This document shows, in pieces, positions 2,095-22,612 of a DNA stretch of 51,417 nucleotides. Below the pieces are notes generated by a model, which made no database searches, was not told the origin of the DNA, and saw only the letters and a program-made list of their open reading frames with translations. A program made the position numbers and the translations under genes. Source of the DNA: Thermoplasmata archaeon (GTDB taxonomy: Archaea > Thermoplasmatota > Thermoplasmata > GCA-020350865); NCBI GenBank assembly GCA_036475875.1, contig JAZGAR010000073.1, positions 1-51,417 on the forward strand, in the 5' to 3' direction. Numbering within the stretch: position 1 is the first letter of the stretch; the number at the start of each line of letters is the position of its first letter.

Positions 2095-3239
2095 AGATAG
2101 AGGGAATCGCAGAAGATCTGTACTCATGCCTTCAGTGCGGTTATTGCACATCCATATGTCCCATGTATGAACAGCTCGGATGGGAGTCGGCATCCCCCAG
2201 AGGGAAAATCTTCTATATCAAGCAGTTGACCCAAAAAAATCTGTTGGACAAGATACTCCGCAGGGAAATAGTGGTTACCGAGGAATTTATAACTAGAATG
2301 TACCAATGCACAGGCTGCGGTGCCTGTGAAGAGGTATGTCATGTAAATATCAAACTGCATGATTTCTGGAAAAAGGTCAAGGAATGGCTCTTTGAGGAAG
2401 GACTCATCAGCATTGAAGCCCACAAAAGGGTCCATGATAGGATCCACCAGTTCAAAAATCCCTTTGCGGAACCCCCTGAAAACAGGGGTAATTGGCTTCC
2501 TGACGACATTAAACTCTCAAAAAATCCCGAGGTTATATTTTTCACGGGGTGTACGGAGGCCTACAGAAAACAGGAGATGGCAATTACCACTGCAAGGTTG
2601 CTACAGAAAGTGGATGTTCCCTTCACTATTCTCGGCTCTGAAGAATGGTGCTGCGGTTCAATTTGCATCAACACAGGACAGATTGATTATATCAAACAGT
2701 TCGCAACTCATAACGTCGAAGCCATCAAAAAAACAGGTGCTAAAACATTGGTTATTGCCTGTGCTGGATGTTATAATACGATCAAAAACGAATATCCAAA
2801 AATCGTAGGGGATTTGCCCTTTAAATTATTCCACGTTTCCGAATATCTAGAGAAATTGATCAAAGAAGACAGATTGCAATTCACAAAATCCATAGAAAAA
2901 ACCGTTACCTTCCATGATTCTTGTCACCTCGGAAGAGGGGCAGGTGTGTTCGATGCACCACGAAATGTTATAAAGAGCATTCCAGGTATAAAATTGGTGG
3001 AGATGTTGAGGAGCAGGGAGCTTTCAAGATGTTGTGGTGCCGGATGCGGATGTGTGGCAGCATTCAGAAACATCGCCGTGGCTTTGGCGTTGGAGAGAGT
3101 TCATGAGGCACAAGATACAGGTGCGGAAATGATAGTCACCACATGCCCATTCTGCAATCTAAACCTGAACAATGTGGCAGCAGATAACGGTTTGATCAAA
3201 ACCGTGGATGTGGTTCAATTGGCTTATCAGGCCGTTTAA
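2085..3239 (+). CDS. Fe-S oxidoreductase, GlcF/HdrD-like (2x[4Fe-4S] plus two CCG domains)
   Basis: CLQCGYCTSICP and CTGCGACEEVC ferredoxin motifs, then two Cys-rich CCG segments (FFTGC...EEWCCGS and FHDSCH...SRCCGAG). Confidence 0.85.
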   Translation: MGIKIEGIAEDLYSCLQCGYCTSICPMYEQLGWESASPRGKIFYIKQLTQKNLLDKILRREIVVTEEFITRMYQCTGCGACEEVCHVNIKLHDFWKKVKEWLFEEGLISIEAHKRVHDRIHQFKNPFAEPPENRGNWLPDDIKLSKNPEVIFFTGCTEAYRKQEMAITTARLLQKVDVPFTILGSEEWCCGSICINTGQIDYIKQFATHNVEAIKKTGAKTLVIACAGCYNTIKNEYPKIVGDLPFKLFHVSEYLEKLIKEDRLQFTKSIEKTVTFHDSCHLGRGAGVFDAPRNVIKSIPGIKLVEMLRSRELSRCCGAGCGCVAAFRNIAVALALERVHEAQDTGAEMIVTTCPFCNLNLNNVAADNGLIKTVDVVQLAYQAV

Positions 3240-3285: not shown

Positions 3286-6282
3286 TTACAATGCTCTATC
3301 CACCATGGCCATTAACTGCCCTGGCTCGAATTGTCTCAAAAAAGGTACATTGGAAGGGCAGATGCACGAGCATGCACCGCAACCCATACAAAGAGCCTCG
3401 TTAACCTCGGCTATCCCGGTTTCGTCGTTGACGTTTATCGCATTGTAGGCACAATTTGTTTCACAGAGTCCACAGCCAGAACACCTTTCCTCGTCCACAA
3501 CCGCAGAAATGCCTTCAGTGAAGAGCTGTTTTTTGGAAAGTATGGTCATTGCTCTTGCCGCTGCACCGCTCGCTTGGGAAATGGTCTCGTCAATGAATTT
3601 CGGAGAATGACATGTACCGCACAAGAATATTCCTGCTGCGGCGAAATCAACAGGTCTGATTTTCATATGTGCCTCCAAGAAAAATCCATGCTCAGTTAGG
3701 GGGACCTTTAGAATCTTGGCCAACTCTTCGTTCTCTTCATGGGGAACTGTCGCAGTGCTCAGTACCAGCATATCGGGTTTAAAGACCAGTTTTTTCTTCA
3801 ATATATGATCGTTTACAGAGACCTTTAATTTTTCACCATCGTTAACAACCTTAGGCCTATCATCATCGCCATAAGATATGAAGAATACACCTTTCTCCCT
3901 TGCTTTTCGATAGAACTCCTCCCTGAACCCGTAGGTCCTTAAATCCCGGTATAAGATATAGATGTTCGAGTCAGGATTTTGTCTCTTGAGTTTTAGGGCA
4001 TTTTTCACGGCTTCAGAACAACAAACCCGGCTGCAATATTCCCGACCTTCTTCTCTTGAACCAACACATTGGATCATCACTACGCTTTTTCCTGAAAAAC
4101 CTTCGTCATGAAGCTTCTTGTCGAATTCCAATTGTGTCATCACTCTAGGATCTTCACCGTAAAGGTATTGGCCCTTCGGTTTTAGCTCCTTTGCACCTGT
4201 TGCAACCACAATAACTCCTGCCTCGACCTCGATGGCCATATCTTTTTGCGATATATTTGCAGTGAAATTACCAATATAACCGTTAACATTGCTGAGAGCA
4301 GCATCCGTAAAAACCTCGATTTTTTCGTTACTGCTCACCATACCAATGATTTCTTTTAATACCTTCTTCGGATCTTCACCAGTCAATGTATGATGTATAT
4401 TAAGAAGATTACCTCCCAGTTCTTTCTCCTTCTCGACGAGATAAACCTTGCTGCCCTGACCCGCTAGATCCAGTGCGCTGGTCATACCTGCTACCCCCCC
4501 GCCTATAACCAAAGCAGCATTTTTGCATTCCACGGGTGTTTTATGCACCGACTTGTTCCTTCTAACCTTTTCAACAGCCATGGCGACCAAATGTTTTGCT
4601 TTTTCTGTCGCTTTCTCAGGCTCGTTTTTATGCACCCAGGAACTGTGCTCTCTAGTGCTCGTTAACTCGAATAGATAAGGATTCAATCCCGCCTCTTTAA
4701 CGGTGTTTTGAAACAAAGGTTCATGCGTTCTAGGCGTGCAGGATGCAACTATTACTCTATTCAAATTATGCTCTTCGATCTTTTCCCTGATCTTCCCTTG
4801 CGTATCCTGAGAGCATGTATAGAGATTATGCTCCGCATGAATGACATTAGGCAGGGTCATAGCATACTCCGTTACCATAGGGACATCCACAACACCGCCA
4901 ATATTAATGCCACAATGACAGCAGAACACCCCTATCCTCGGCTCCTCACCTTTAATCTCCTTTTCAGGCGGATATTCTTTGAAGGTCACGAGGCTGTTCC
5001 TCTCCGAGGATATCGGGCTAGAGGCCTTTATAGCGGCACCGCTGGCTTGAGAAACTGTATCAGGAATATCTTTTGGTGAGGAGAAGACACCGCTGACGTA
5101 AATACCTGGTCTTGAGGTTCCCATAGGGGAAAAGAGTTGGGTTGAACAAAAACCATATTCATTGAGGTCTATCCCGAATATCCTTCCCAATTCCTTGATG
5201 TCCTCGGAAGGTTCCAACCCCACCGAAAGCACCACGAGATTGAACTCTTCCTCTTTTAATTCTCCATCCTCGGTTCGGTATACGATTCTGAGGTCGCTTG
5301 TTCCTGGAATTTCCTCGATATGTGCGATCCTACAGCGCGTGTAGTTCACACCATACTCTTTTTTTGCCCGCTCGTAGTACTCATCAAATCCTTTGCCGTA
5401 GGTTCGCATATCCATGTAAAATATGTGGCATTCCGTACCTTTAGTATGATCTTTTACAATGATCGCCTCTTTTGTAGCATAGGTACAGCATACGGCAGAA
5501 CAGTACTGCCTCTCTACCCTCACATCCCTTGAGCCAATACATTGAATCCATGCGATCTTCATGGGATGTTTTCCATCTGAAGGGCGAAGTACGGTACCTG
5601 CAAAAGGCCCGGATGCATTGAGGATTCTCTCGAATTGCATGCTTGTAATGACATTGTCATAAACTCCATAGCCGTACTCGCTTTTTATCGAAGGATCGAA
5701 CGTTTCAAAACCAGGTGATAACACTATAGAACCGACTCTGAGTTCCATTTTCTCCTCTTTTTGGTCGTAATCGACGGCATTTGCCTTGCAGTACTGCTCA
5801 CATAATCCACAGCCCATACAATGATCCCTATCGATACGATATCTCAGAGGAACAGCTTGAGGAAACGGGATGAAAGTCGCACTTCTAAGGCCTATACCTC
5901 TATCAAATTCGCTTATCGCCTCCCTGGGACAATATTGGGCGCATAATCCGCATCCAGTGCATTTTTCCTCGTCAATATACCTGGGATGCTTGATCAATCG
6001 GACAGTGAAATTTCCGATCTCACCCTCCACCTCATTGATATCAGAGCATGTTATGACCTCTATGTTATGATGTCTTCCTGTTCCCACAAGTGTTGGGGCG
6101 ATGGTGCACATGGCGCAATCGTTGGTGGGAAAGGTCTTATCCAAAGCAGCCATGACTCCTCCAATACTGCTGGTCTTTTCCACCAGATAAACCTTGAATC
6201 CAGATTCGGCCAAGTCCAAGGAAGTCTGCATCCCGCTGATACCGCCACCAACAACCAGAACGGCACCAACCACATCCCCCAT
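3286..6282 (-). CDS. hdrA: tandem HdrA-like flavo-iron-sulfur protein (two HdrA units in one chain)
   Basis: The ORF track gives 3286..6333. I place the start at ATG 6282 (MGDVVGAVLVVGGGISG), preceded by GGAGGGG and one nt after the upstream stop. Unit 1 has GGGISG, DKTFPTNDCAMC, an inserted ferredoxin (CTGCGLCAQYCP, CMGCGLCEQYC) and CIGSRD...CSAVCC. An HdrA N-domain follows (IGVFCCHCGINIGG...ASCTPRTHE). Unit 2 has GGGVAG, CVGSRE...CSRVCC and a C-terminal CSGCGLCETNC/CMGCGACSCICP. Confidence 0.9.
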   Translation of the reverse strand: MGDVVGAVLVVGGGISGMQTSLDLAESGFKVYLVEKTSSIGGVMAALDKTFPTNDCAMCTIAPTLVGTGRHHNIEVITCSDINEVEGEIGNFTVRLIKHPRYIDEEKCTGCGLCAQYCPREAISEFDRGIGLRSATFIPFPQAVPLRYRIDRDHCMGCGLCEQYCKANAVDYDQKEEKMELRVGSIVLSPGFETFDPSIKSEYGYGVYDNVITSMQFERILNASGPFAGTVLRPSDGKHPMKIAWIQCIGSRDVRVERQYCSAVCCTYATKEAIIVKDHTKGTECHIFYMDMRTYGKGFDEYYERAKKEYGVNYTRCRIAHIEEIPGTSDLRIVYRTEDGELKEEEFNLVVLSVGLEPSEDIKELGRIFGIDLNEYGFCSTQLFSPMGTSRPGIYVSGVFSSPKDIPDTVSQASGAAIKASSPISSERNSLVTFKEYPPEKEIKGEEPRIGVFCCHCGINIGGVVDVPMVTEYAMTLPNVIHAEHNLYTCSQDTQGKIREKIEEHNLNRVIVASCTPRTHEPLFQNTVKEAGLNPYLFELTSTREHSSWVHKNEPEKATEKAKHLVAMAVEKVRRNKSVHKTPVECKNAALVIGGGVAGMTSALDLAGQGSKVYLVEKEKELGGNLLNIHHTLTGEDPKKVLKEIIGMVSSNEKIEVFTDAALSNVNGYIGNFTANISQKDMAIEVEAGVIVVATGAKELKPKGQYLYGEDPRVMTQLEFDKKLHDEGFSGKSVVMIQCVGSREEGREYCSRVCCSEAVKNALKLKRQNPDSNIYILYRDLRTYGFREEFYRKAREKGVFFISYGDDDRPKVVNDGEKLKVSVNDHILKKKLVFKPDMLVLSTATVPHEENEELAKILKVPLTEHGFFLEAHMKIRPVDFAAAGIFLCGTCHSPKFIDETISQASGAAARAMTILSKKQLFTEGISAVVDEERCSGCGLCETNCAYNAINVNDETGIAEVNEALCMGCGACSCICPSNVPFLRQFEPGQLMAMVDRAL

Positions 6283-6283
6283 T

Positions 6284-7174
6284 CTACAACCCCTCCGCAA
6301 TCGAATAGGTCGGTGATGCATCCACATGGCCAAAAGGTAGGATCATCTGCTTTTTCCACAATCTTCCCACATGAAGGAATACGATTTTTGTTGGGATTCC
6401 TAGATCCTCTGAGAGCTGCTCCACTGTTTTGGGTTCCGATCTTACAGCATCCAATATCCTACTGCGAATGTACTCATCGCTCACAAATTCATCCATCCAT
6501 TCATCGAATTTTTGCTGGGGAATTTTTTCGCCGTAAACGTTGCTTTCCTCCGTAAGTTTCCTTTCCCTACCCACAACCGCCCGGAGTTTGAATCTCTCAG
6601 AAGCATGTTTAGCACCGAGTAGTCCCTTCATTTTCTCATGGTCCACTTCCGTCCCCTTGAATAGAGGATTCGGACCAAGGGATGTTATGCGCTTTGTGAA
6701 CTCCTTCACAACCTCAGCGAATTTTGGTCCCTCTGCGGCTGAGACCCATTCCAAATGCATTCTTTCAGGCATGATTTCGGTCTTGGCAAGAAGCATCTTT
6801 ATCATCTTCACCTTTTTCTCGGCATTATAATTTCCAGTGAGATAATGACAGTCTCCTGGATGACACCCCATAACAAGCACACCATCTAAACCCTGTTCGA
6901 AAGCCTCGAAGACCATACTGGGATCGATGCTGCCTGTGCACATGACCCTGATAATCCTCACCGTGGGAGGCAACTGAATCCTGCTTATTCCTGCCAGGTC
7001 TGAAGCAGCGTAACTGCACCAGTTGCAAAGTAGTCCTAAGATATTGGGTTCGAAATTTGTATCCCCTCCACTACGATCAGTATCGCCATGATCTTTTGGG
7101 TTGCCTTCCATTTCAGAGCCGGCCATATCTATACCACCTCCATTATCGGCTGAAGGTTCTTTTTCATCATCCAT
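6284..7174 (-). CDS. mvhD: MvhD-like [2Fe-2S] subunit with a ~125-aa C-terminal extension
   Basis: LLCNWCSYAASDLAG...RVMCTG...MGCHPGDCHY. The ATG overlaps the upstream stop (TAATG), with AGGAGG 7 nt upstream. The tail from about residue 170 is homologous to the tail of 10185..14258. Confidence 0.85.
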   Translation of the reverse strand: MDDEKEPSADNGGGIDMAGSEMEGNPKDHGDTDRSGGDTNFEPNILGLLCNWCSYAASDLAGISRIQLPPTVRIIRVMCTGSIDPSMVFEAFEQGLDGVLVMGCHPGDCHYLTGNYNAEKKVKMIKMLLAKTEIMPERMHLEWVSAAEGPKFAEVVKEFTKRITSLGPNPLFKGTEVDHEKMKGLLGAKHASERFKLRAVVGRERKLTEESNVYGEKIPQQKFDEWMDEFVSDEYIRSRILDAVRSEPKTVEQLSEDLGIPTKIVFLHVGRLWKKQMILPFGHVDASPTYSIAEGL

Positions 7175-10100
7175 TACACAGCCTCCTTCTGAGCCATGGC
7201 CTTAATCTCGGCAACGATCTGATTCAAAGTGAAATGCGGCGCCGTAATCGCCCTCTCAGGACAGCTTGCTCTGCAGGAACCGCATCCTTTACACAGAACT
7301 TCAGTCACATTCGCCTTGCCTTCTTCATCCTTGACAATCGCGCCATATGGACAGACGATTTCGCAGGTGCCACATCCGCTGCATTTCTCCCTGTCCACAA
7401 CTGAAGGTAGCCCCTCCGCTTCAATTGTCTCCTTGGACAATATGGTTGTTGCTCTGGATGCTGCGCCCATGGCCTGGGAGATGCTCTCATCCACGAATTT
7501 TGGTGAGTGTGCCAAACCGCATAAGAACACACCCTCAGTTGCGAAGTCCACGGGGCGCAGTTTCATATGTGCCTCCAAGAAAAATCCGTCCTTGTTCAAA
7601 GGCACCTTCAACATCTTCGCCAGTTCTTCATTCTCTGGATATGGATAGATACCTGCACTCAACACCAAAATGTCTGGTCTGAATATCAATTTCTTTTTTA
7701 GTATTGGATCTACAACAGATACCTTAATCGATTTTCCTTCCTTAACAACCTCTGGTTTTTCCTCATCTTCATACCTGATAAAAAATACACCTTTTCTCCT
7801 GGCCTCCCTATACCAATTCTCTGCAAAACCGTATGTCCTGATGTCCCTATACAAAACGTATACCTTTACAGATGGATCGATTTTTTTGATTTTTAGGGCG
7901 TTTTTAACCGCGTGGGTACAGCACAGTCTGCTGCAATGACTGTGTTCATGATCTCTTGATCCAACACATTGTATCATAACCACTGTATTTCCAGAAAATT
8001 CTCCTTCAACAATTTTTTTCTCCAATTCAAGCTGTGTTAGGACCCTCTTATCCTCACCATAAAGATATTCTTTGGGGGAATGTTCATATCCGCCTGTAGC
8101 TACAATAATAATTCCATGCTCCAAGAGCTCCTCTTTTCCGTCTTTCATTATGGTGGTTTTATAACCTCCTACATAACCATCGATGTTTTCTATTTCTGAG
8201 CCAAGATACAGATTGATATTCTCGTGCGCCTCAACTTCACCTATAAGATCGTTCAACCTTTTTCGTGGGTCTTCTCCTTCTAAAAGATAATGAAGCCTGT
8301 TCAGATTGCCTCCAAGTTTTTTCTCCCTTTCTATGAGATGAACCTTAAAGCCCTGGTTCGCCAATTCCAAGGCAGCGGTCATACCTGATAATCCTCCTCC
8401 TATCACCAAACCAGCATGATCCACGTTCAAAGGTTCTTTATGCAAGGGCTGGAGTAAACTTGTCTTTGCCACGGCCATCCTGATGAGATCCTTAGCTTTT
8501 TTTGTGGCCTTTTTCTTTTCATGCATATGTATCCAAGAGCACTGGTCTCTGATGTTTGCCATTTCAAATAGGTATTGGTTCAGCCCCGCTTCTCTAACGG
8601 TTCTTCTGAAAAGGGGTTCATGTGTCCTTGGAGTGCATGAGGCCACAATAACCCTGTTTAAATTATGCTCTTTTATTTTTTCCTTGATGCGCTCTTGAGT
8701 ATCCTGTGAGCATGTGTAGAGGTTGTGTTCCGCATAAACCACGTTAGGCAATGTCTTCGCATAATCCGCAGCCTCTGGAACACTCACCACCCCTCCGATA
8801 TTTATTCCGCAATGACAAACAAAAACCCCGATCCTCGGCTCTTCAGAAATAACATCCCTCTCTACCGGAAATTCCTCAACTGCAGTCAACCTGTTCCTCT
8901 CGGAGGATAGGATTGCAGAAGCCCTTACAGCTGCACCGCTCGCTTGAGCAACGCTATCAGGTATATCTTTGGGGGCGGAGAAAGCTCCGCAAACATAGAT
9001 TCCTTTCCTCGTTGTATCCAATGGGAAAAACCTCTTCGTGGCGCAGAATCCGTCTTCGTTCAATTGAAATCCAAAAGTCCCTGCCAATTCCTCAGCATCA
9101 GAAGGTGAGCGCAGTCCTGCAGCCAAAACCACCATGTCAAATTCCTCTTGTTTTAATTCTCCGTTCTCCTCCCTATAGGTGATCAAAAGGTTATTCGTGC
9201 CTATTTTTTCCTCTACATCCGCTATCCTACACCGCGTATATTTCACGCCATATTCATCCCTAGCACGATGAAAGTAATCGTCAAATTCCTTTCCAAAAGC
9301 ACGCATGTCCATATAGAAAACATGCGCTTCAAGTCCAGGGGCATGCTCCTTTGCTACAAACGCCTCTTTTGTTGAGAACATGCAGCAAACAGATGAACAA
9401 TAACCCATTCCGCCATGAGGATCCCTAGAACCAACACATGAGATGAAGGCTATTCTCTTTGGCACCTCCCCATCCGAAGGCCGAATCACGGTCCCACCAA
9501 AGGGACCAGAGGCGCTCAATATGCGTTCGAATTCCAAGCTCGTAATTACGTTTGGATATATGCCATAGCCGTATTCCGATTTTAATTCTGCCTGAAACTC
9601 CTCAAAGCCTGGAGCCAATATAACAGAGCCAACCTCGATATTGATTTCCCTACTTTGCTGGTCATAATCGATTGCCTTGGCCTTGCAGATTTTTTCACAA
9701 AGCCCGCACCCAATACATCTTTCGATATCAATTATGAAAACCAAAGGAATGGCCTGGGGATATTTAACGAATACCACATTTCGAATACCAAGACCTCTAT
9801 CATATTCATTAACCGCCTCTAAAGGACAGAACGTCGCACATAATCCGCAACCAGTACATTTTTCTTCGTCGATGTATCTTGGTTGTACCGTTATAGTAAC
9901 GTCGAACCTTCCGGGATCTCCTTCAATATTCTTTACTCTAGCATTGGAGATAAGCGTGATGTTTCTATGCCTACCAGTATCTACCAATTTCGGTGCCATG
10001 GTACACATGGCGCAATCATTCGTGGGAAACGTTTTATCCAATTGGGACATCACACCCCCAATACTGGATGACTTTTCCAAGAGGTAGACCTTAAATCCAG

Positions 10101-10185
10101 ATTCGGCTAGATCAAGGGAGGCCTGCATGCTCGCTATCCCACCCCCTACTACGAGCACAGCCCCGACTTTGTCCTCTTCACCCAC
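7174..10185 (-). CDS. hdrA: tandem HdrA-like flavo-iron-sulfur protein (two HdrA units)
   Basis: Same architecture as 3286..6282: GGGIAS, DKTFPTNDCAMC, CTGCGLCATFCP/CIGCGLCEKIC, CVGSRD...CSSVCC; N-domain IGVFVCHCGINIGG...ASCTPRTHE; GGGLSG, CVGSRD...CSRLCC; CSGCGTCEIVCP/CKGCGSCRASCP. A GTG start overlaps the upstream TAG (TAGTG), with AGGAGGAG 5 nt upstream. Confidence 0.9.
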   Translation of the reverse strand: MGEEDKVGAVLVVGGGIASMQASLDLAESGFKVYLLEKSSSIGGVMSQLDKTFPTNDCAMCTMAPKLVDTGRHRNITLISNARVKNIEGDPGRFDVTITVQPRYIDEEKCTGCGLCATFCPLEAVNEYDRGLGIRNVVFVKYPQAIPLVFIIDIERCIGCGLCEKICKAKAIDYDQQSREINIEVGSVILAPGFEEFQAELKSEYGYGIYPNVITSLEFERILSASGPFGGTVIRPSDGEVPKRIAFISCVGSRDPHGGMGYCSSVCCMFSTKEAFVAKEHAPGLEAHVFYMDMRAFGKEFDDYFHRARDEYGVKYTRCRIADVEEKIGTNNLLITYREENGELKQEEFDMVVLAAGLRSPSDAEELAGTFGFQLNEDGFCATKRFFPLDTTRKGIYVCGAFSAPKDIPDSVAQASGAAVRASAILSSERNRLTAVEEFPVERDVISEEPRIGVFVCHCGINIGGVVSVPEAADYAKTLPNVVYAEHNLYTCSQDTQERIKEKIKEHNLNRVIVASCTPRTHEPLFRRTVREAGLNQYLFEMANIRDQCSWIHMHEKKKATKKAKDLIRMAVAKTSLLQPLHKEPLNVDHAGLVIGGGLSGMTAALELANQGFKVHLIEREKKLGGNLNRLHYLLEGEDPRKRLNDLIGEVEAHENINLYLGSEIENIDGYVGGYKTTIMKDGKEELLEHGIIIVATGGYEHSPKEYLYGEDKRVLTQLELEKKIVEGEFSGNTVVMIQCVGSRDHEHSHCSRLCCTHAVKNALKIKKIDPSVKVYVLYRDIRTYGFAENWYREARRKGVFFIRYEDEEKPEVVKEGKSIKVSVVDPILKKKLIFRPDILVLSAGIYPYPENEELAKMLKVPLNKDGFFLEAHMKLRPVDFATEGVFLCGLAHSPKFVDESISQAMGAASRATTILSKETIEAEGLPSVVDREKCSGCGTCEIVCPYGAIVKDEEGKANVTEVLCKGCGSCRASCPERAITAPHFTLNQIVAEIKAMAQKEAV

Positions 10186-13100
10186 TACGACTCCTCCTGG
10201 CTTATTGCCCTATATTTAGGAGATGTATCCTCTATCTCCGTCAGCTCAACCAATCCTCTACGCCTCAAAGCTATTATTTGTCTCAATATGTCTTTAGGCC
10301 TTTCATCCAGCTTTCTCGCCATCTGCTTAACCGATAAAGCCTGTCCTTTTGTCATGCTCAAAATCCTATTACGGATGAACTCAGAGGACAGAGCCTCATT
10401 TATGATCTCGTCGAAATTCTCCTGATTAAGTCTTTTTCCATAGACGTTCCCTTCCTCAACCAATTTTCTTTCTTTCCCAACTAACCATCTCATTCTAACA
10501 TCGCTTGCCTCGTTTTGTGCGGCACTTAGTTTTTCCATAAGATCTTTATCCTCTCTGGCATTGCAAGGTCCCAATTTTGAGATCTGTTCTGTAAATTCCG
10601 CTATCAATTTCGCGAACCTTCCGCCCTCTGAAGCTGAGACCCATTCGATCCTCAACCTTTCAGGCTCGATACCAACCTTCTCGAGCAATCTTTTTGTGAT
10701 CTTTATCTTCCTCTCGGCCTGATAGTTGCCCTTTTGATAGTGACAATCTCCAAGATGACATCCGCCTATGAACACTCCGTCAGCTCCACTTTTGAAAGCC
10801 TCAAAAACTATTGTTGGATCCACCCTGCCAGAACACATCACTCTAACGATACGAAGATTGGGAGGATATTGATTTCTATTTATACCCGCTAGATCTGCTC
10901 CTGCGTAGCAACACCAATTGCATAAAATCCCAAGGATGTTCGGCTCCATAAGAGTCATTTCGCCCTCGATGGGAACTGAAGTGACCTGGGCAAAGAGCTG
11001 GTCATCTGTAAAATGCCGCATTGTAATAGCTCTTTTAGGACAACTGGCCCCGCAGGTTCCACATCCCTTGCAAAGAACTTTTATTACCTCTAGTTTCCCC
11101 TCCTCATCCTTCTCGATGGCCTGATATGGACAAAGCTCCATACAAAGTTCACAACCAATGCATTTCTCCTTGTCAATGGAAGATGTGATAGGCTCAGTAA
11201 GTACAGTGTCTCTAGCCATAACAATTGAGGCCTTCACGGCCGCACCTGAAGCCTGGGCGATGCTATCTGCGATATTTTTTGGATATTGTGCACAACCAGC
11301 TAAGAATATCCCGTCGGTATTGGTCTCAACAGGCGCAAGCTTCGGATGCTTTTCCAAGAAAAAACCGTTTGCACTCAGAGGGATTTTGAGCATTCCTTGA
11401 AGTGCCGATACTTCTCTCTCTCTGGGACACATACCGACGGAGAGCACCACCGCATCAACTTCTAACTTTAGCGTTCTCCCGAACAGCTTATCATGAATTT
11501 TCACCAACGTTACTTCGCCTTCTCTCTTCACCTCAGGTTTCTCGCCTTGAGAATATCTAAAGAATATGACACCCTTTGACCTTGCCTTTTGATACATATC
11601 CTCTGTTCCTTTACTAAAAGCCCTGATGTCCCTGTAGAACGACAGCACTTCCACACCCATTTCACGCAGTTGGATAGCCTGTTTCAGTGCCACTTGACAA
11701 CAATAGCGTGAGCAGCCAGTAAAGCCTTCTGATTCCCTGGAGCCAACGCAGTGGACTAAAGCCACGGTTTGCGGCTTTTTGCCTGCGATCAAAATATCGG
11801 TTCCTTCTTCCTTCAACGCTAGAAGTCGCTCAAGTTCCACATTGGTAAGGACATTTGGCAGCTCACCATAACCGTAGTGGCCTTTCGGGTCAAAAACATC
11901 GCAGCCTATCGCCAGTATTATAGTGCCAATATCCAGATCGATAATTTCTTCTTTTGTTTCGAGCGTTATTGCATTTTTCTCGCATGCCTCCAAGCAGCTA
12001 CCACATTTATCGCAGATATTGAAGTCGACAGCATGTGTATTTGGCCAGGAGCTTGGATTTTTATATATTGCCTTTCTCTTGGTTAAGCCGGCATTGAACT
12101 CATCACCCACCTCAATTGGGCATACATCTACACATTTTCCGCATGCGTCACATTTTTGAAAGTCAACCCCTCTTGGGCTCCGCAGTATTGTGGCCTTGAA
12201 GTTACCTATGAAGCCATCTATTTTTGAGAGCTCTGAGTTGGTGAGAATATCTATGTGCCCTTGCTCCAAAATTCTGTAATTTTCTTCGAGAAGTTCTGAG
12301 GCTGGCACCTCCTCCGGACTGAGTAGACCGCGTTGCGCAACCCATCCTCCCAAGAATGGAGTTTTTTCCACCAAATAAGTTTGAAATCCTTGTTTTGAGA
12401 TGTCTATGGCGCTTTGAATACCAGAGATTCCGCCACCTATGATGAGAGCCGATTTTGTCACATGCACCTTTTCCGGTCTTAAAGGTTGTAGCAATCTAGA
12501 TCTATCAATAGCCCTTCTCAAAAGATCCTTAGCTTTTTCTGTGGCCTTTTCTGGCTCATTTTTATGTACCCATGAGCATTGGTCCCTAATATTGGCCATC
12601 TCAAACAAGAATGGGTTCAGACCTGCTTTTGCGCATGTCTCCCTAAATATAGCTTCATGAGTTCTTGGGGTGCAGGCTGCCACCACTACCCTCGTAAGAT
12701 CATGTTCCTTTACAGCCTCCTGGATTTTTTTCTGAGTATCGTCAGAACACGTATAAAGATTATGGGTAGAATACACGACATCAGGCAGATCTTTCACATA
12801 ATCACTCACACAATCCACGTCAACAACGCCCGCTATATTAACGCCGCAGTGGCAAATAAAAACTCCGATTCTAGCCGCTTTAGAAACTTCCTTCTCCTCC
12901 ATCTCCTCTTCCTCGTCATACTTTCTATAATCCCGAACAGAAACTGCCGCTTTTGCAGCCGCAGCCGAAGCTTGAGCCACAGTGTCAGAAATATCTTTAG
13001 GGCCTTGAGCGCAGCCGCAAAGATAGACACCGCTTCTAGTGGATTCGATAGGACCGACATTACTTTGTCTCTCTTTGAAAAAGCCGTTTTCGTCCGTTTG

Positions 13101-14258
13101 AATATCAAGAATTTCTGCCAGTTCCTTCGTCCCGCCTGAGGGAATGATAGCATTTGATAGAACCAGTAAATTTGTCCTGATCTTTATCTCTTTCCCGGTT
13201 TCAGTATCTTCGATACGGATTATGAGATCCCTTTTATTCGGATCCTCTTTGATCTTTGCCGGACGCCCTCTAAGAAATTTAATACCCTCTTTCTTCGCTC
13301 TTTCGTAGTACTCCTCAAAATCCTTGCCGTAGGCACGAATATCAATATAGCAAATCGTGATGTTCTCAATTTCAGGCTCATGTTCTTTGGCTATCATCGC
13401 ATCCTTGATCGCGTACATACAGCATACCCTGGAGCAGTACCCACAGCCTCGATGTTGGTCTCTGGAGCCATAACATTGAATGAATACGAGGTTCTTTGGT
13501 ATGTTTCGGTCTGAAGGTCTAACAACATGCCCACCTGAAGGTCCAGAAGCGTTGAGGAGGCGTTCGAGTTGCAAACATGTTATGACGTTATCGTATCTTC
13601 CATAACCATATTCGGTTCGTATTGTGGGATCGATCAGTTCGTACCCTGTTGCAACGATTATGGCACCTACATCGAGTTCGATCTCCTCTTCCTTCTGTTC
13701 ATGGTCAATGGCCTTTGCATCGCATACCTTTACGCACAGCATGCATCTGCCTGCTTTATCCAATATCGGTCTTCCCTTCAACCCAAAGTAGAGGCATTTG
13801 GTTGAATCGATGGTGTAGCACATGGGCACAGCTTGAGGAAAAGGGATATGGATGGCCTTTCTCATGGATAAATCGAGATCAAATTCGTTTGGAACCTTTA
13901 CTGGACATCTTTCTGTGCATTGACCACAACCAACACATTTTTCCTCACTCACATATCTGGGGTGTTTTTTTACCATGACTTGGAAATCTCCAATATCCCC
14001 GAAAACACTAGCAACCTCAGATAAAGTAAAAACTTTGATGTTTGGATGTCTGGCAACTTCCACGAGCTTTGGCGATAGTATACAGAGTGAACAATCATTG
14101 GTGGGAAAGGTTTTGTCCAATTGTGCCATCTTTCCTCCAAGGGAAGGCGAGCGCTCCACAATATAAACTGTGGCACCATAATTTGCGAGATCCAGTGCTG
14201 CTTGAATTCCTGCAATTCCTCCTCCTATAACCAACACTCCTTTCTCTTTCATTAGCAT
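10185..14258 (-). CDS. hdrA: tandem HdrA fused to MvhD and a C-terminal extension (1357 aa)
   Basis: Unit 1: GGGIAG, DKTFPTNDCSLC, CVGCGQCTERCP, CYGSRD...CSRVCC. N-domain: IGVFICHCGVNIAG...AACTPRTHE. Unit 2: GGGISG with inserted CDACGKCVDVCP/CDKCGSCLEACE and CVGSRE...CSRYCC. C-terminal ferredoxin: CIGCELCMELCP/CKGCGTCGASCP. Then MvhD (ILCNWCCYAGADLAG...VMCSG...GGCHLGDCHY) and a ~126-aa tail. The second ATG at 14252 has better spacing to GAGGTG, so the start may be 14252. Confidence 0.9.
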   Translation of the reverse strand: MLMKEKGVLVIGGGIAGIQAALDLANYGATVYIVERSPSLGGKMAQLDKTFPTNDCSLCILSPKLVEVARHPNIKVFTLSEVASVFGDIGDFQVMVKKHPRYVSEEKCVGCGQCTERCPVKVPNEFDLDLSMRKAIHIPFPQAVPMCYTIDSTKCLYFGLKGRPILDKAGRCMLCVKVCDAKAIDHEQKEEEIELDVGAIIVATGYELIDPTIRTEYGYGRYDNVITCLQLERLLNASGPSGGHVVRPSDRNIPKNLVFIQCYGSRDQHRGCGYCSRVCCMYAIKDAMIAKEHEPEIENITICYIDIRAYGKDFEEYYERAKKEGIKFLRGRPAKIKEDPNKRDLIIRIEDTETGKEIKIRTNLLVLSNAIIPSGGTKELAEILDIQTDENGFFKERQSNVGPIESTRSGVYLCGCAQGPKDISDTVAQASAAAAKAAVSVRDYRKYDEEEEMEEKEVSKAARIGVFICHCGVNIAGVVDVDCVSDYVKDLPDVVYSTHNLYTCSDDTQKKIQEAVKEHDLTRVVVAACTPRTHEAIFRETCAKAGLNPFLFEMANIRDQCSWVHKNEPEKATEKAKDLLRRAIDRSRLLQPLRPEKVHVTKSALIIGGGISGIQSAIDISKQGFQTYLVEKTPFLGGWVAQRGLLSPEEVPASELLEENYRILEQGHIDILTNSELSKIDGFIGNFKATILRSPRGVDFQKCDACGKCVDVCPIEVGDEFNAGLTKRKAIYKNPSSWPNTHAVDFNICDKCGSCLEACEKNAITLETKEEIIDLDIGTIILAIGCDVFDPKGHYGYGELPNVLTNVELERLLALKEEGTDILIAGKKPQTVALVHCVGSRESEGFTGCSRYCCQVALKQAIQLREMGVEVLSFYRDIRAFSKGTEDMYQKARSKGVIFFRYSQGEKPEVKREGEVTLVKIHDKLFGRTLKLEVDAVVLSVGMCPREREVSALQGMLKIPLSANGFFLEKHPKLAPVETNTDGIFLAGCAQYPKNIADSIAQASGAAVKASIVMARDTVLTEPITSSIDKEKCIGCELCMELCPYQAIEKDEEGKLEVIKVLCKGCGTCGASCPKRAITMRHFTDDQLFAQVTSVPIEGEMTLMEPNILGILCNWCCYAGADLAGINRNQYPPNLRIVRVMCSGRVDPTIVFEAFKSGADGVFIGGCHLGDCHYQKGNYQAERKIKITKRLLEKVGIEPERLRIEWVSASEGGRFAKLIAEFTEQISKLGPCNAREDKDLMEKLSAAQNEASDVRMRWLVGKERKLVEEGNVYGKRLNQENFDEIINEALSSEFIRNRILSMTKGQALSVKQMARKLDERPKDILRQIIALRRRGLVELTEIEDTSPKYRAISQEES

Positions 14259-14285: not shown

Positions 14286-15176
14286 TCATTTTGAAACGAT
14301 CTTCTCCACCAACTTCTTCGTTTTGACGGTATTTTTCTTCAAACCCAACTCGTTTTTTGGATCGAGTCCCATTGCCAAACCCAATAATTGTGGGTAATAT
14401 AGGACCGGTATTTGGGGCGTTTCTTCTTCCTCACCTTTCGCCCTCAATATCGTCGATTGGTATTCATCGTACATGATGCTGCAAAAAGGGCATTGCAAAA
14501 CCATGGCATCCGCCCCGGCTTTGCGGATATGCTCGAGTTTGTCTGCTGCCATCTTCATGGAGGTTGCCTCCTCGATGGCCAGAATTCCGCCACCGCAGCA
14601 TTGTTTTTTGTTCTCGTAATTCACCGCCTCTGCTCCCGTGACAGTGATCAATTCATCTAGCGTTTTGGGTCTAATTGGGTTATCAAATCCAGTATAAATC
14701 TCTGAGGGTTTCAAATAATGACAACCGTAATGTGGTGCGATCTTCAGTTTGCTTAAGGGCTCAACGATTTTTTCTTTAATTTTTTCTATACCAACATCCT
14801 CGTACAATATCCTAGAGAAATGTTTTACATTTACAGTTCCTTTAAATTCGCGTCCCGTTGATCCTATAATTTTATTGATATTTTTCCGTTCCTTATCGTT
14901 CTCTTTTAGGGTCTTATTGACCTTAGTCAAAGTGGCCGTGCAAGCATTGCACACGGTAATTATGTCCAATCCTTTCTCCTCTGCAACACATATGTTTCTT
15001 GCCCCCAGGGAAAGGAATGTTTCATGGTCCACTGAATGAATAGGATAACCGCAACAAACAAAATCGTTCGAGTCCCAAAATTCTATCCCTAATAACTTTG
15101 CCACACTTCTCGTTGCTACATCATAATTGATACCCCTTGTGGGGACTGTACATCCCAAAAACAACGCGTACTGCAT
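14286..15176 (-). CDS. hdrB: heterodisulfide reductase subunit B-like (two CCG domains)
   Basis: MQYALFLGC...DFVCCGYP and ...KQCCGGG CCG motifs. 296 aa. The start abuts the hdrC stop (TAAATG). Confidence 0.9.
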   Translation of the reverse strand: MQYALFLGCTVPTRGINYDVATRSVAKLLGIEFWDSNDFVCCGYPIHSVDHETFLSLGARNICVAEEKGLDIITVCNACTATLTKVNKTLKENDKERKNINKIIGSTGREFKGTVNVKHFSRILYEDVGIEKIKEKIVEPLSKLKIAPHYGCHYLKPSEIYTGFDNPIRPKTLDELITVTGAEAVNYENKKQCCGGGILAIEEATSMKMAADKLEHIRKAGADAMVLQCPFCSIMYDEYQSTILRAKGEEEETPQIPVLYYPQLLGLAMGLDPKNELGLKKNTVKTKKLVEKIVSK

Positions 15177-15716
15177 TTATCTCCCCCCAACAAGCTTTTT
15201 TATCTTTGTCTTATCGAGGATGTTCCTAGTTTCCTTCACCTTTTCCTCTATCTCAGGCAAGTTGAATTTAGACCGCATTTTATTGTCGAATTCATCTATT
15301 TCCACCATTCTCCCATGTTCATCAAGAAGATCCAAACCCGCCTTCGCTGATGGGTGAATGTACCCCTCCTTTATTGCAATGGTTTGTATAGCCTCTATAA
15401 GACTGGTTATTCTTACATCCTGGGGGCACCTTTCATGGCAACTGTAACATGCTGAACATAGCCATAGAAAATCACTTGATAGAACCTCTTGGCGCATACC
15501 GAGTAATGCCATCCTTATTATTTTCCTGGGATCGTATCTATCGTCTTTTGCCCCCACGGGGCAGACTGCTGAGCATGTCCCGCATTGAAAACAATACAGT
15601 ATATTCTCTCCCCCAGGGATACTTGCAATTTCATATTTAAAATTCGGATCTATAGCATCCATATCCATTTCTGGATACTCGTTCTCTGCATCTCTACTTT
15701 TACCATTTTTTGTCAT
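15177..15716 (-). CDS. hdrC: heterodisulfide reductase subunit C-like (2x[4Fe-4S])
   Basis: CFQCGTCSAVCP and CSACYSCHERCP motifs. 179 aa. GAGGTG lies 5 nt upstream of the ATG. Confidence 0.9.
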   Translation of the reverse strand: MTKNGKSRDAENEYPEMDMDAIDPNFKYEIASIPGGENILYCFQCGTCSAVCPVGAKDDRYDPRKIIRMALLGMRQEVLSSDFLWLCSACYSCHERCPQDVRITSLIEAIQTIAIKEGYIHPSAKAGLDLLDEHGRMVEIDEFDNKMRSKFNLPEIEEKVKETRNILDKTKIKKLVGGR

Positions 15717-15956: not shown

Positions 15957-16059
15957 CGATATATTCCATTCACACCCTTCAATAAAAACCTAAACAACCT
16001 AATTGAAAATGACATAAACATAACTTTATAAAGCCTTTAAAACCTTGGAAGTGGTTTGT

Positions 16060-16476
16060 ATGAAAATCGACGAATACGAGATGCCAGATGAGCTGTATTA
16101 TCATAAGGAACATGCGTGGGCCAGAAAAGAAGGTGATTCCATTGTTGTGGGTTTTGACGACTTTGCACAAAAGATGGCGGGAACCATAAAGCGCGTGGTT
16201 TTACTTGATGAAGGTGACGAAGTCCAACAAGGGAAGCCTTGCGGGACGATAAGCAGTGGGAAATGGACCGGGAAATTTTACTCACCCATAACCGGAGAAA
16301 TCACCGAGATAAACGAAGATGTCTTGGATGAACCAAAAATGATAAACGATGATCCATATGGGGGGGGCTGGCTTTTTAAAGTGCAGCTAAGCAATCCCGA
16401 TGAATTGACGAATCTGTTCCAGGGCGAAAAAATGGCCAGTTGGCTAAAAGAGGAGATTGTAAAGCACAAAAAGTGA
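16060..16476 (+). CDS. GcvH-like lipoyl-carrier protein 1 (non-canonical Lys context)
   Basis: The ORF track starts at TTG 16045. ATG 16060 gives MKIDEYEMPDEL, matching the paralog. H-protein fold signature: YYHKEHAWARKEG..VVGFDDFAQ...GTISSGKWTGKFYSPITGEI.EINE...P..INDDPYGGGW. The Lys lies 6 residues before the conserved Tyr, as in ESVKAxxDxY. Confidence 0.85.
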   Translation: MKIDEYEMPDELYYHKEHAWARKEGDSIVVGFDDFAQKMAGTIKRVVLLDEGDEVQQGKPCGTISSGKWTGKFYSPITGEITEINEDVLDEPKMINDDPYGGGWLFKVQLSNPDELTNLFQGEKMASWLKEEIVKHKK

Positions 16477-22121: not shown

Positions 22122-22132
22122 ATTTTCGCCTC

Positions 22133-22600: not shown

Positions 22601-22612
22601 ATTTCTCACCTC

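What the first reader, a model, noticed from the sequence alone, without database searches (positions are those of the whole stretch)
3286..14258. Three consecutive ~1000-1357-aa tandem-HdrA proteins (six flavin units, two MvhD) with no recognisable electron-input module
Seen in sequence: each of 3286..6282, 7174..10185 and 10185..14258 is built as type-I unit + HdrA N-domain + type-II unit + C-terminal ferredoxin. The type-I unit has GGGxxG, DKTFPTNDCxMC, an inserted ferredoxin and CxGSRD..CSxxCC. The type-II unit has GGGxxG without the FPTNDC motif, plus CxGSRE/D..CSxxCC. The genes are coupled by stop/start overlaps (TAATG, TAGTG). Together with operon 2 the window holds about ten HdrA-like flavin units in 30 kb. 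Operon 1 contains only hdrC, hdrB, these proteins and MvhD modules, with no MvhAG, FdhAB, FrhB or NuoEF. Established knowledge: canonical HdrA acts as a homodimer at the core of the Mvh-Hdr complex. Inference: the fusions may be covalent pseudo-dimers whose two flavin sites have diverged. The electron donor is unknown.
Basis: partly seen in the sequence, partly recalled or inferred. Interest (0 to 1): 0.62.

Follow-up and report, generated by a model that had tools for sequence, protein, structure and literature searches.

The report
Three fused double-HdrA genes, known type
One operon of an uncultured Thermoplasmata archaeon encodes three diverged "double HdrA" flavoproteins, each a built-in asymmetric dimer of the electron-splitting enzyme HdrA; this is a published, widespread type, and the only odd feature is that the operon carries no electron-donor module of its own.

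Summary
On the minus strand, hdrC-hdrB is followed by a 1357-aa, a 1003-aa and a 998-aa protein, with a 296-aa MvhD gene between the last two. Each large protein has two HdrA flavin units in the order [flavin unit + inserted ferredoxin] - [HdrA N-domain] - [second flavin unit] - [C-terminal ferredoxin].

The genes are old paralogues (46-60% aa identity). Independent metagenome contigs and relatives show the same junctions, so this is not an assembly artefact.

The architecture is already described:
- It is "type II HdrA" (HdrA3/4 of ANME archaea and methanogens).
- BamE of class II benzoyl-CoA reductase has been described by cryo-EM as a fused HdrA dimer with the same cofactor count.
- The long MvhD proteins resemble BamF, an adaptor with a winged-helix tail.

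What remains specific:
- The operon has no donor module, whereas most other double-HdrA loci in this genome and elsewhere carry FrhB, NuoEF, GltD, MetVF or MvhAG.
- The genome (80% complete) shows no [NiFe] hydrogenase, McrA or F420 ligase.
- A same-genus genome places a GltD insert and an FrhB-like gene in the matching array. This points to NAD(P)H-linked input supplied in trans.
- Long MvhD genes consistently sit between successive HdrA pairs.

The parts
15177..15716 (-). hdrC (179 aa, two [4Fe-4S] motifs), first gene of operon 1
   Evidence: Pfam Fer4_8/Fer4_17; directly abuts hdrB
14286..15176 (-). hdrB (296 aa), two CCG domains with all ten cysteines
   Evidence: Pfam CCG x2; end-to-end alignment with methanogen HdrB 5odc_B, E 8e-73
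10185..14258 (-). A1, 1357 aa: unit I with inserted ferredoxin (12924-14258), HdrA N-domain (12465-12896), unit II with its own inserted ferredoxin (11193-12464), C-terminal ferredoxin (10968-11192), MvhD domain (10569-10937), helical + winged-helix tail (10188-10568)
   Evidence: same subfamily as own-genome C254, C231 and C142 proteins
7174..10185 (-). A2, 1003 aa type II (BamE-type) HdrA: unit I + inserted ferredoxin (8866-10185), N-domain (8416-8856), unit II without inserted ferredoxin (7411-8415), C-terminal ferredoxin (7177-7410)
   Evidence: AF2 pLDDT 85.9, pTM 0.86; Foldseek hits to HdrA chains
6284..7174 (-). mvhD2, 296 aa long MvhD adaptor: low-complexity N-terminus, MvhD [2Fe-2S] domain (6674-7042), helical linker + winged helix (6287-6673)
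   Evidence: Pfam FlpD E 7e-53; AF2 pLDDT 87.6; Foldseek MvhD TM 0.88-0.94, tail resembles ArsR/SmtB and Zalpha winged helices; tail conserved in 27 archaeal and bacterial homologues
3286..6282 (-). A3, 998 aa type II HdrA with the same layout as A2; last gene of operon 1, with no MvhD or FrhB gene after it
   Evidence: closest paralogue is the own-genome C80 1001-aa protein, in both unit trees
16045..16476 (+). GcvH-like lipoyl-carrier gene, divergent from hdrC (context)
   Evidence: Pfam GCV_H E 1e-37
592..3239 (+). glcD-like FAD oxidase (592-2094) and HdrD/GlcF-like Fe-S/CCG protein (2085-3239), convergent with the end of A3 (context; possible partner)
   Evidence: same position in relatives; a second copy lies about 2 kb from the A1-like gene on contig C254
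20988..25392 (-). End of operon 2: 355-aa small HdrA-like, 571-aa N-domain HdrA, short MvhD (22133-22609) and FrhB-like protein (20988-22145). These are candidate trans-acting input parts.
   Evidence: In same-genus genome G004 close homologues of three of these genes (359 aa, 75% to the 355-aa protein; 570 aa; 481-aa FrhB-like, 72%) follow directly after an A1-like/long-MvhD/A2-like array; no separate MvhD gene was called there

Best explanation
Shown from sequence:
- A1, A2 and A3 are type II (BamE-type) HdrA proteins. In each, one polypeptide replaces the HdrA homodimer.
- Unit I is a thioredoxin-reductase-like FAD domain with the Cys-x2-Cys loop, its own [4Fe-4S] cluster and an inserted 2x[4Fe-4S] ferredoxin.
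- Unit II brings the N-domain [4Fe-4S], a second FAD domain with its own cluster, and the C-terminal 2x[4Fe-4S] ferredoxin.
- The predicted cofactor count is 7 [4Fe-4S] + 2 FAD for A2 and A3. A1 has 9 [4Fe-4S] + 1 [2Fe-2S] + 2 FAD.

Inferred wiring, by analogy with the BamE cryo-EM description:
- The unit I flavin is the electron-bifurcating one.
- Electrons enter through the C-terminal ferredoxin and the MvhD [2Fe-2S] adaptor.
- The high-potential electron leaves through the unit I cluster to HdrC and HdrB, where a disulfide is reduced.
- The low-potential electron leaves through the Cys pair, the N-domain cluster and the inserted ferredoxin to ferredoxin. The reaction may also run in reverse.
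- The 296-aa MvhD and the MvhD end of A1 are BamF-like long adaptors whose winged-helix tail docks a partner.

Inferred function of the operon: it is a core-only array of three old paralogous bifurcating cores, two long adaptors and one genuine HdrBC. The mid-potential donor module is supplied in trans. The most likely donor is NAD(P)H-linked. Candidates are the NuoEF/Bfu-type module and the short MvhD + FrhB-like pair of the co-directional operon 2, about 5 kb upstream.

My odds: identity and pseudo-dimer wiring about 0.9; donor in trans and NAD(P)H-linked about 0.35.
For: Domain order and motifs.

Conservation in 42 type II HdrAs from archaea and bacteria. All of the following are invariant:
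- the Cys pair (C58, C61);
- 8 cysteines of the inserted ferredoxin;
- C250, C263, C267 and C268;
- K273;
- four N-domain cysteines;
- C740, C751, C755 and C756;
- K761;
- 8 cysteines of the C-terminal ferredoxin.

Structure: the AF2 model of A2 is confident as a single compact chain (pLDDT 85.9, pTM 0.86). Its parts superpose on solved HdrA with TM 0.96 and rmsd 1.4 A for the core.

Phylogeny: first units cluster with canonical and short HdrAs, and second units with N-domain standalone HdrAs. Both splits have 100% SH-aLRT support. This matches PMC12054007.

BamE description: a fused HdrA dimer with clusters E1-E7 and two FADs. The bifurcating FAD sits in the N-terminal TrxR1 beside Lys280 and Cys59-Cys62. 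BamF is a long MvhD with a winged helix that contacts BamI. Residue numbers nearly coincide with A2 (C58/C61, K273, K761).

Long MvhD: the model shows MvhD + linker + winged helix.

HdrB is intact and methanogen-like.

Donor in trans:
- The genome has no [NiFe] hydrogenase large subunit, no McrA and no F420 ligase.
- Four other double-HdrA loci of this genome carry a clear partner: FrhB (C80), NfnAB-like + MetVF (C200), a GltD insert (C142) and NuoEF (operon 2). A fifth has only a nearby glcD/hdrD pair (C254).
- In same-genus G004 the A1-like protein has a GltD insert. There the array is followed directly by close homologues of the 355-aa, 571-aa and FrhB-like genes that end operon 2 here.
- The order operon 2, then gcvH and an M28 peptidase, then operon 1 is conserved in relatives.
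Against: - No BamE or BamF sequence or coordinates could be compared directly, because the BCRII entries are not in the PDB copy. The homology rests on the paper's text and on matching residue numbers.
- BamE has Gln768 at the second flavin. Here, and in 104 of 105 type II HdrAs examined, that position is Lys. The second flavin may therefore be catalytic, and the BamE wiring may not transfer fully.
- There is one HdrBC for three cores, A3 has no MvhD of its own, and there are no expression data (no RNA runs).
- The donor assignment rests on synteny alone.
- The disulfide substrate is unknown in an organism without Mcr.
- The genome is only 80% complete, so absences are provisional.
Confidence: 0.7

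Rival explanations
1. Both flavins of each chain are bifurcation sites. Each protein would then carry two electron-splitting centres, and the operon would hold six.
For: The Lys (K409 equivalent) is present in both units in 104 of 105 type II HdrAs. The Glu (E356 equivalent) is invariant in unit I and at least 90% conserved in unit II. The [4Fe-4S] cysteines of the second unit are invariant. PMC12054007 proposes two bifurcation reactions per type II HdrA.
Against: Only one N-domain cluster, one Cys-x2-Cys loop and one C-terminal ferredoxin exist per chain, so only one flavin can have the full three-way wiring. [quoted passage not shown]
Confidence: 0.2
2. The three cores form one daisy-chained supercomplex. 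Each long MvhD would sit on the C-terminal ferredoxin of one pseudo-dimer and, through its winged helix, dock the next pseudo-dimer. Bifurcation modules would then be coupled in series rather than working as separate isoenzymes.
For: Gene grammar in 80 loci: the long MvhD is preceded by an HdrA bearing a C-terminal ferredoxin in 39 of 40 cases and followed by a double HdrA in 40 of 40. The short MvhD is followed by a double HdrA in only 1 of 82 cases. In A1 the long MvhD is fused after the C-terminal ferredoxin. BamF's winged helix is a docking element, and BCRII shows that two bifurcation modules can be coupled.
Against: The loci were collected with A2 as query and many are related Asgard genomes, so the counts are not independent. 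Own-genome contig C231 has a long MvhD followed by hdrB. A series of bifurcations needs a high-potential sink at each step, and only one HdrBC is encoded. There is no structural or biochemical evidence.
Confidence: 0.15
3. The second flavin is left uncovered because there is no second N-domain. It is itself the entry point and oxidises a diffusible hydride donor such as NAD(P)H directly, so no separate input module is needed.
For: The double-TrxR HdrA of Sporomusa ovata, which has no GltD domain, shows weak NADH:benzyl viologen activity of 0.5 U/mg (PMC9430772). PMC12054007 argues that the absence of a partner HdrA could free space at the FAD for F420 in HdrA2. The Lys at the second flavin is conserved.
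Against: The S. ovata activity is very low. The region of HdrA corresponding to the NADPH domain of thioredoxin reductase binds a [4Fe-4S] cluster instead. Most homologous loci do carry explicit donor modules. Sister species insert a GltD domain to bind NAD(P)H.
Confidence: 0.1
4. The tandem units are an assembly artefact, from collapsed or chimeric repeats.
For: HdrA paralogues are very numerous in this genome (38 matches). The assembly is fragmented into 354 contigs.
Against: The paralogues share at most 69% DNA identity. Independent metagenome contigs cross every junction. The same gene order occurs in several relatives. About 1005-aa homologues occur in hundreds of genomes, including cultured Desulforamulus.
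Confidence: 0.01

Closest known systems
BamE / BamF / BamD module of class II benzoyl-CoA reductase, Geobacter metallireducens (cryo-EM preprint, bioRxiv 10.64898/2026.04.10.717634)
   Same: BamE is a single-chain fused HdrA dimer with 7 [4Fe-4S] and 2 FAD, a Cys pair at about 59-62 and a Lys at about 280 beside the bifurcating flavin in the N-terminal half. The adaptor BamF is a long MvhD with a winged-helix tail. The acceptor BamD is HdrBC-like. The cofactor count and key residue numbers match A2 and A3.
   Different: Here the second flavin keeps Lys (BamE has Gln768). HdrB and HdrC are separate, and HdrB keeps all ten cluster cysteines (BamD's distal cluster is degenerate). There is no AOR-type BamBC output and no BamGHI in the operon. 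There are three cores in a row instead of one. A1 has a second inserted ferredoxin and a fused adaptor.
Type II HdrA (classes A3/A4; HdrA3/4 of ANME archaea and methanogens; PMC9012536, PMC12054007)
   Same: Two TrxR domains in one chain. Cys197 and the N-domain are lost in complementary fashion. The N-half is related to class A6 and the C-half to class A12. K409 and E356 are kept in both halves. No member of this class has been studied biochemically (PMC12054007).
   Different: The described conserved cluster pairs type II HdrA with FdhB and a non-catalytic molybdopterin protein. Operon 1 has neither. The host is a Thermoplasmata archaeon with no Mcr detected. Chadwick 2022 describes the N-domain-bearing half as the first half, whereas here the Cys-bearing half comes first.
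HdrA of the MetFV-HdrABC-MvhD methylene-THF reductase (Moorella thermoacetica, Sporomusa ovata; PMC9430772)
   Same: The gene order is hdrC-hdrB-hdrA(double)-mvhD. The HdrA has two TrxR domains. The inserted ferredoxin is missing from the C-terminal half.
   Different: No MetVF follows operon 1; this genome's only MetF follows a different double HdrA on contig C200. The Moorella HdrA carries a GltD insert, like the C142 paralogue here and unlike A1-A3.
Canonical (MvhAGD-HdrABC)2 of methanogens (PDB 5ODC, 8RVU)
   Same: The domains have the same folds (TM up to 0.96). HdrB and HdrC are the same kind. MvhD serves as adaptor.
   Different: The canonical enzyme is a homodimer of single-TrxR HdrA with two symmetric arms and a [NiFe] hydrogenase donor. 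Here the dimer is covalent and asymmetric, and no hydrogenase is detected in the genome.
FlxABCD-HdrABC of Desulfovibrio (NADH-dependent; cited in PMC9430772)
   Same: It offers a functional analogy for the proposed overall reaction: NAD(P)H oxidation coupled to reduction of ferredoxin and a disulfide through an MvhD-type adaptor.
   Different: Flx uses a canonical HdrA and dedicated FlxABC subunits, and none of these are present here. The analogy comes from my own knowledge of that system and was not tested.

Membership tests
Type II HdrA (PMC12054007) | Two thioredoxin-reductase-like FAD domains in one polypeptide | tested here: met
   Two Pyr_redox_2/FAD_oxidored stretches per protein. Unit I and unit II share 31-34% identity. 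PDB alignment in three permuted stretches.
Type II HdrA (PMC12054007) | N-half and C-half belong to different HdrA lineages (A6-like and A12-like), not a recent internal duplication | tested here: met
   Tree of 71 units: first units with short and canonical HdrAs, second units with N-domain standalone HdrAs, each split at 100% SH-aLRT.
Type II HdrA (PMC12054007) | K409 and E356 equivalents retained in both TrxR domains | tested here: met
   K273 and K761 invariant, E220 invariant, E722 at least 90% conserved. CSxxCCxxxxK occurs twice in A1, A2 and A3. A3 unit II has Asp for the Glu.
BamE-type fused HdrA dimer (BCRII) | Seven [4Fe-4S] sites (2 C-terminal ferredoxin, 1 N-domain, 1 + 1 TrxR, 2 inserted ferredoxin), two FAD, and a Cys-x2-Cys pair beside the N-terminal flavin | tested here: met
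   Cysteine sets counted in A2 and A3. A1 has two extra clusters and an MvhD [2Fe-2S].
BamE-type fused HdrA dimer (BCRII) | Second flavin non-bifurcating, with Gln in place of the Lys | tested here: not met
   Lys in unit II of A1, A2 and A3 and in 104 of 105 homologues.
Class II benzoyl-CoA reductase (BamBCDEFGHI) as a system | AOR-type BamB/BamC output and BamGHI input encoded with BamDEF; BamD with a degenerate distal cluster | tested here: not met
   No AOR gene in the window. Genome AOR genes lie on contigs C308, C148, C272 and C225, away from the Hdr clusters. HdrB keeps all ten cysteines and aligns fully with 5odc_B. NuoEF-like genes occur only in operon 2.
BamE (direct homology) | Sequence or structure alignment to G. 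metallireducens BamE and BamF | not testable with these tools
   PDB entries 29QY, 29RC and 29RN are not in the held PDB copy. No fused HdrA appears among the PDB hits.
Canonical HdrABC-MvhAGD | Single-TrxR HdrA homodimer and MvhA/MvhG hydrogenase | tested here: not met
   Double HdrA. PF00374 gives 0 matches in the genome, which is 80% complete.
HdrL / type III HdrA (GltD- or NfnB-like NAD(P)H domain inserted) | GltD domain (PF14691 + Pyr_redox_2) inside the HdrA | tested here: not met
   No PF14691 in A1-A3. It is present in the paralogue on C142 and in the A1-like protein of same-genus G004 and G001.
MetFV-HdrABC-MvhD | metV/metF adjacent to hdrCBA-mvhD | tested here: not met
   The only MTHFR gene is at C200:14503-15378, after another double HdrA.

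The most novel reading that the evidence does not exclude
The conserved gene grammar is (HdrA pair) - long winged-helix MvhD - (double HdrA), repeated, then short MvhD and a donor. This may encode a single supercomplex in which successive bifurcating cores are wired in series through BamF-like adaptors. Such a multi-stage electron-bifurcation cascade would share one HdrBC sink, and operon 1 would be a three-stage version whose terminal donor docks in trans. It would extend the 'coupled bifurcation modules' principle just shown for benzoyl-CoA reductase to a widespread family of arrays in Asgard, Thermoplasmata and Bathyarchaeia archaea.
Probability: 0.12. Interest if true: 0.8.

Novelty: new member of a known kind. 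Interest (0 to 1): 0.36.

Why it matters
Double HdrA proteins are among the most abundant redox proteins in the genomes of uncultured anaerobic archaea (Asgard, Bathyarchaeia, Thermoplasmata) and many bacteria. Only one relative, BamE, has been characterised.

This genome is an extreme case. It holds about nine double HdrAs, 13-15 MvhD modules and about 16 CCG-domain proteins in 2.3 Mb, and no hydrogenase, Mcr or F420 ligase was detected. Its energy metabolism therefore probably runs on such modules.

Operon 1 adds no new protein type. It is a clean example of a core-only array. Together with the partner-bearing paralogues in the same genome, it shows the double HdrA being used as a plug-in bifurcation core. 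It also gives a concrete set of genes for testing what the long MvhD adaptors connect to.

Tried and rejected
- Transcript evidence: no RNA run holds the stretch, so co-expression of operons 1 and 2 could not be tested.
- Direct comparison with BamE and BamF: the entries are not in the PDB copy. I relied on the preprint text.
Only pLDDT, pTM and Foldseek hits were usable.
- An earlier scan note says a 'long HdrA of Methanomassiliicoccales' has been solved. I found no paper supporting this and do not use it.
- HdrL-type (GltD-containing) identity was rejected for A1-A3.
- A hydrogenase, formate dehydrogenase or F420 donor encoded nearby was rejected. There is none in the window. Two molybdopterin genes lie on other contigs. 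No F420 ligase was found.
- Recent tandem duplication of A2 and A3 was rejected. A3's nearest paralogue is on contig C80, and A2's nearest sequence in the tree is an Asgard (Freyarchaeota) protein.
- The bacterial promoter/terminator scan was not run, because the host is archaeal.
- The glcD/hdrD pair as donor: the adjacency recurs on contig C254 and in relatives, but always on the opposite strand. It is a lead only.


Full report
**What is there**

On the minus strand the window carries a tightly packed six-gene operon:

| Gene | Coordinates | Size |
|---|---|---|
| hdrC | 15716-15177 | 179 aa |
| hdrB | 15176-14286 | 296 aa |
| A1 | 14258-10185 | 1357 aa |
| A2 | 10185-7174 | 1003 aa |
| mvhD2 | 7174-6284 | 296 aa |
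| A3 | 6282-3286 | 998 aa |

Shine-Dalgarno-like GGAGG boxes precede A2, mvhD2 and A3.

**Domain layout**

Pfam finds two FAD/Rossmann stretches and several 4Fe-4S ferredoxin stretches in each large protein. It also finds an MvhD (FlpD) domain at the end of A1 and in the 296-aa protein.

Against solved structures, A2 matches canonical HdrA (8RVU, 5ODC; E about 1e-216) in three stretches whose order is permuted:
- A2 10-380 matches HdrA 154-524, the flavin domain plus the inserted ferredoxin.
- A2 444-614 matches HdrA 6-176, the N-terminal cluster domain.
- A2 865-999 matches the C-terminal ferredoxin.

Three details need correcting:
- An MvhD gene separates A2 from A3.
- The second unit of A1 also has an inserted ferredoxin.
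- The first nucleotide-binding motif of A2 reads GGGIAS.

**Not an artefact**

- A2 and A3 share 60% aa identity. A1 shares 46-47% with either. DNA identity never exceeds 69%, and unit I and unit II share 31-34%.
- Contigs from an independent marine-sediment run, a strain variant about 97% identical, cross the A3/mvhD2/A2 junctions, the A1/A2 junction and the unit-to-unit junctions inside A1 and A2.
- Relatives at 75-85% identity have the same order: hdrC, hdrB, 1355, 1003/1004, MvhD-277, 999. They also share the convergent hdrD/glcD pair and the upstream operon 2.
- The closest named record is an uncultured Thermoplasmata archaeon.

**What kind of protein it is**

The architecture is published.

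- Chadwick et al. [quoted passage not shown]
- PMC11237513 reports HdrA-HdrA(-MvhD) fusions in Asgard and TACK archaea, with up to six per assembly.
- PMC12054007 names them type II HdrA. It treats them as a fusion of class A6 and class A12, with K409 and E356 kept in both halves and no biochemistry so far.
- The cryo-EM preprint on class II benzoyl-CoA reductase describes BamE as 'a fused HdrA dimer' with clusters E1-E7 and two FADs. The bifurcating FAD sits in the N-terminal TrxR1 beside Lys280 and the Cys59-Cys62 pair. The second FAD is non-bifurcating, with Gln768. BamF is a long MvhD adaptor whose winged helix docks BamI.

A2 has C58/C61, K273 and K761, and exactly seven cysteine sets for [4Fe-4S] clusters. 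These are invariant in 42 homologues from both domains.

My unit tree separates first units (with canonical and short HdrAs) from second units (with N-domain standalone HdrAs), each split at 100% SH-aLRT. It shows A1, A2 and A3 as old paralogues. A1 groups with the own-genome C254, C231 and C142 proteins. A2 groups with a Freyarchaeota protein. A3 groups with the own-genome C80 protein.

The AF2 model of A2 is confident as one compact chain (pLDDT 85.9, pTM 0.86). The flavin core superposes on solved HdrA at TM 0.96.

Full-length homologues at 51-63% identity occur in many lineages:
- Asgard archaea
- Bathyarchaeia
- Methanomassiliicoccales
- Methanoperedens
- many bacteria, including cultured Desulforamulus putei

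**The adaptors**

mvhD2 and the C-terminus of A1 share a tail of about 125 residues that is conserved from archaea to bacteria. AF2 gives three parts: an MvhD domain, a helical linker and a winged helix (pLDDT 87.6). The first part superposes on solved MvhD at TM 0.88-0.94. The last resembles ArsR/SmtB and Zalpha winged helices. This matches the published description of BamF.

**Both flavin sites look intact**

The Lys after CSxxCC is present in both units of A1-A3 and in 104 of 105 type II HdrAs in my loci. The Glu is invariant in unit I and at least 90% conserved in unit II.

These proteins also differ from BamE at that residue.

The accessory domains exist only once per chain, so only one flavin can have the full three-way wiring. 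By the BamE precedent this is the unit I flavin. This step is inference.

**The missing donor**

Operon 1 has none in cis. In the 80%-complete genome I found:
- no [NiFe] hydrogenase large subunit
- no McrA
- no F420 ligase
- 13-15 MvhD modules
- about 16 CCG-domain proteins
- four FrhB-like genes

Other double-HdrA loci of the same genome and their neighbours:

| Locus | Neighbouring module |
|---|---|
| C80 | a genuine FrhB-family protein |
| C200 | NfnA-like + NfnB/GltD-like upstream; MetV + MetF downstream |
| C142 | a GltD domain inserted in unit I |
| Operon 2 | NuoE/NuoF/NuoG-like parts |
| C254 | a second glcD/hdrD pair about 2 kb away, on the opposite strand (a lead only) |

Across 80 loci from other genomes the partners are:
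- FrhB-like proteins plus an NfnA-like NAD-binding protein (Asgard)
- MvhG-MvhA-HycI (Nitrospirota, Elusimicrobia)
- NuoEF
- HdrD

In the closed same-genus genome G004 the gene order is hdrC, hdrB, A1-like (1565 aa, with a GltD insert), long MvhD, A2-like. Close homologues of three genes that end operon 2 in the window follow directly: a 359-aa, a 570-aa and a 481-aa FrhB-like protein. Next come gcvH, a 413-aa ORF at the position of the window's M28 peptidase, and hdrD/glcD.

I therefore read operon 1 as a core-only array whose mid-potential input is supplied in trans. The input is most likely NAD(P)H-linked and comes from operon 2 parts. I hold this with low confidence (about 0.35).

HdrB is a complete, methanogen-like HdrB, so a real disulfide is probably reduced. 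Its identity is unknown. An earlier follow-up of this scan proposed the neighbouring lipoylated GcvH-like proteins. I did not test that.

**A pattern worth noting**

In the collected loci the long MvhD is preceded by an HdrA bearing a C-terminal ferredoxin in 39 of 40 cases. It is followed by a double HdrA in 40 of 40. The short MvhD follows a double HdrA and precedes FrhB or the operon end.

Operon 1 obeys this grammar: A1 with its fused long MvhD, then A2, then the long MvhD, then A3. It lacks the usual terminal short MvhD and donor.

The counts are biased by how the loci were gathered and by related genomes. Own-genome contig C231 is an exception. The pattern allows, but does not show, that the long adaptors link successive cores into one supercomplex.

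**Verdict**

The protein type, its fusion to MvhD and its occurrence in multi-copy clusters are already known. I score it as a new member of a known kind, of moderate-to-low interest. The open questions are the donor, the disulfide, the role of the second flavin and the function of the long adaptors.

Noticed in passing
own genome contig C200:7988-15402 (outside the window): An NfnA-like (277 aa) and an NfnB/GltD-like (483 aa) gene precede a 1004-aa double HdrA, a short MvhD, MetV (PF12225) and the genome's only MetF. This is a Moorella-type Hdr-linked methylene-tetrahydrofolate reductase cluster in a Thermoplasmata archaeon.
   Followed up: partly
own genome contig C142:227-4705: A 1492-aa double HdrA whose unit I ferredoxin is interrupted by a GltD-type NAD(P)H/FAD domain of about 450 aa (PF14691 + Pyr_redox_2). 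It resembles the 1487-aa HdrA of Moorella thermoacetica. An MvhD, an HdrD-like protein and an HdrA-MvhD fusion follow it.
   Followed up: partly
L107 (same-genus genome G004:C1:4558000-4577900): The matching array reads hdrC, hdrB, A1-like with GltD insert (1565 aa), long MvhD, A2-like. Homologues of the window's operon 2 tail follow directly: a 359-aa, a 570-aa and a 481-aa FrhB-like protein. The window's two operons look like a reshuffled version of one ancestral system.
   Followed up: partly
window 13722-13797 (A1 residues 155-179): The second cluster motif of A1's first inserted ferredoxin is C-x16-C-x2-C-x3-C instead of C-x2-C-x2-C-x3-C. The insertion reads LYFGLKGRPILDKAGR. A2 and A3 have the canonical spacing.
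   Followed up: no
own genome contig C161:1913-3580 and several relatives (rows with TGA): HdrA-like reading frames interrupted by in-frame TGA codons. This could be selenocysteine, since HdrA U197 and BamF Sec19 are known Sec sites, or a pseudogene.
   Followed up: no
own genome contig C254:439-7464: A second glcD/hdrD pair (73-76% identical to window 592-3239) lies about 2 kb from an A1-like 1098-aa double HdrA. A UbiA-like membrane protein and an OsmC-like gene lie between them. The recurrence hints at a link between the 2-hydroxyacid dehydrogenase pair and A1-type HdrAs.
   Followed up: no
L032:15573-16412 and neighbours (Asgard loci L014-L083): A very conserved Asgard operon: hdrC, hdrB, (FrhB-like), short HdrA, N-domain HdrA, long MvhD, double HdrA, short MvhD, two FrhB-like proteins, an NfnA/PyrK-like NAD-binding protein (279 aa) and another FrhB-like protein.
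   Followed up: partly
window 6284-7174, residues 1-44 of mvhD2: The separate long MvhD has a 44-residue acidic, Gly-rich N-terminal extension predicted disordered (pLDDT < 50). Most homologues lack it.
   Followed up: no
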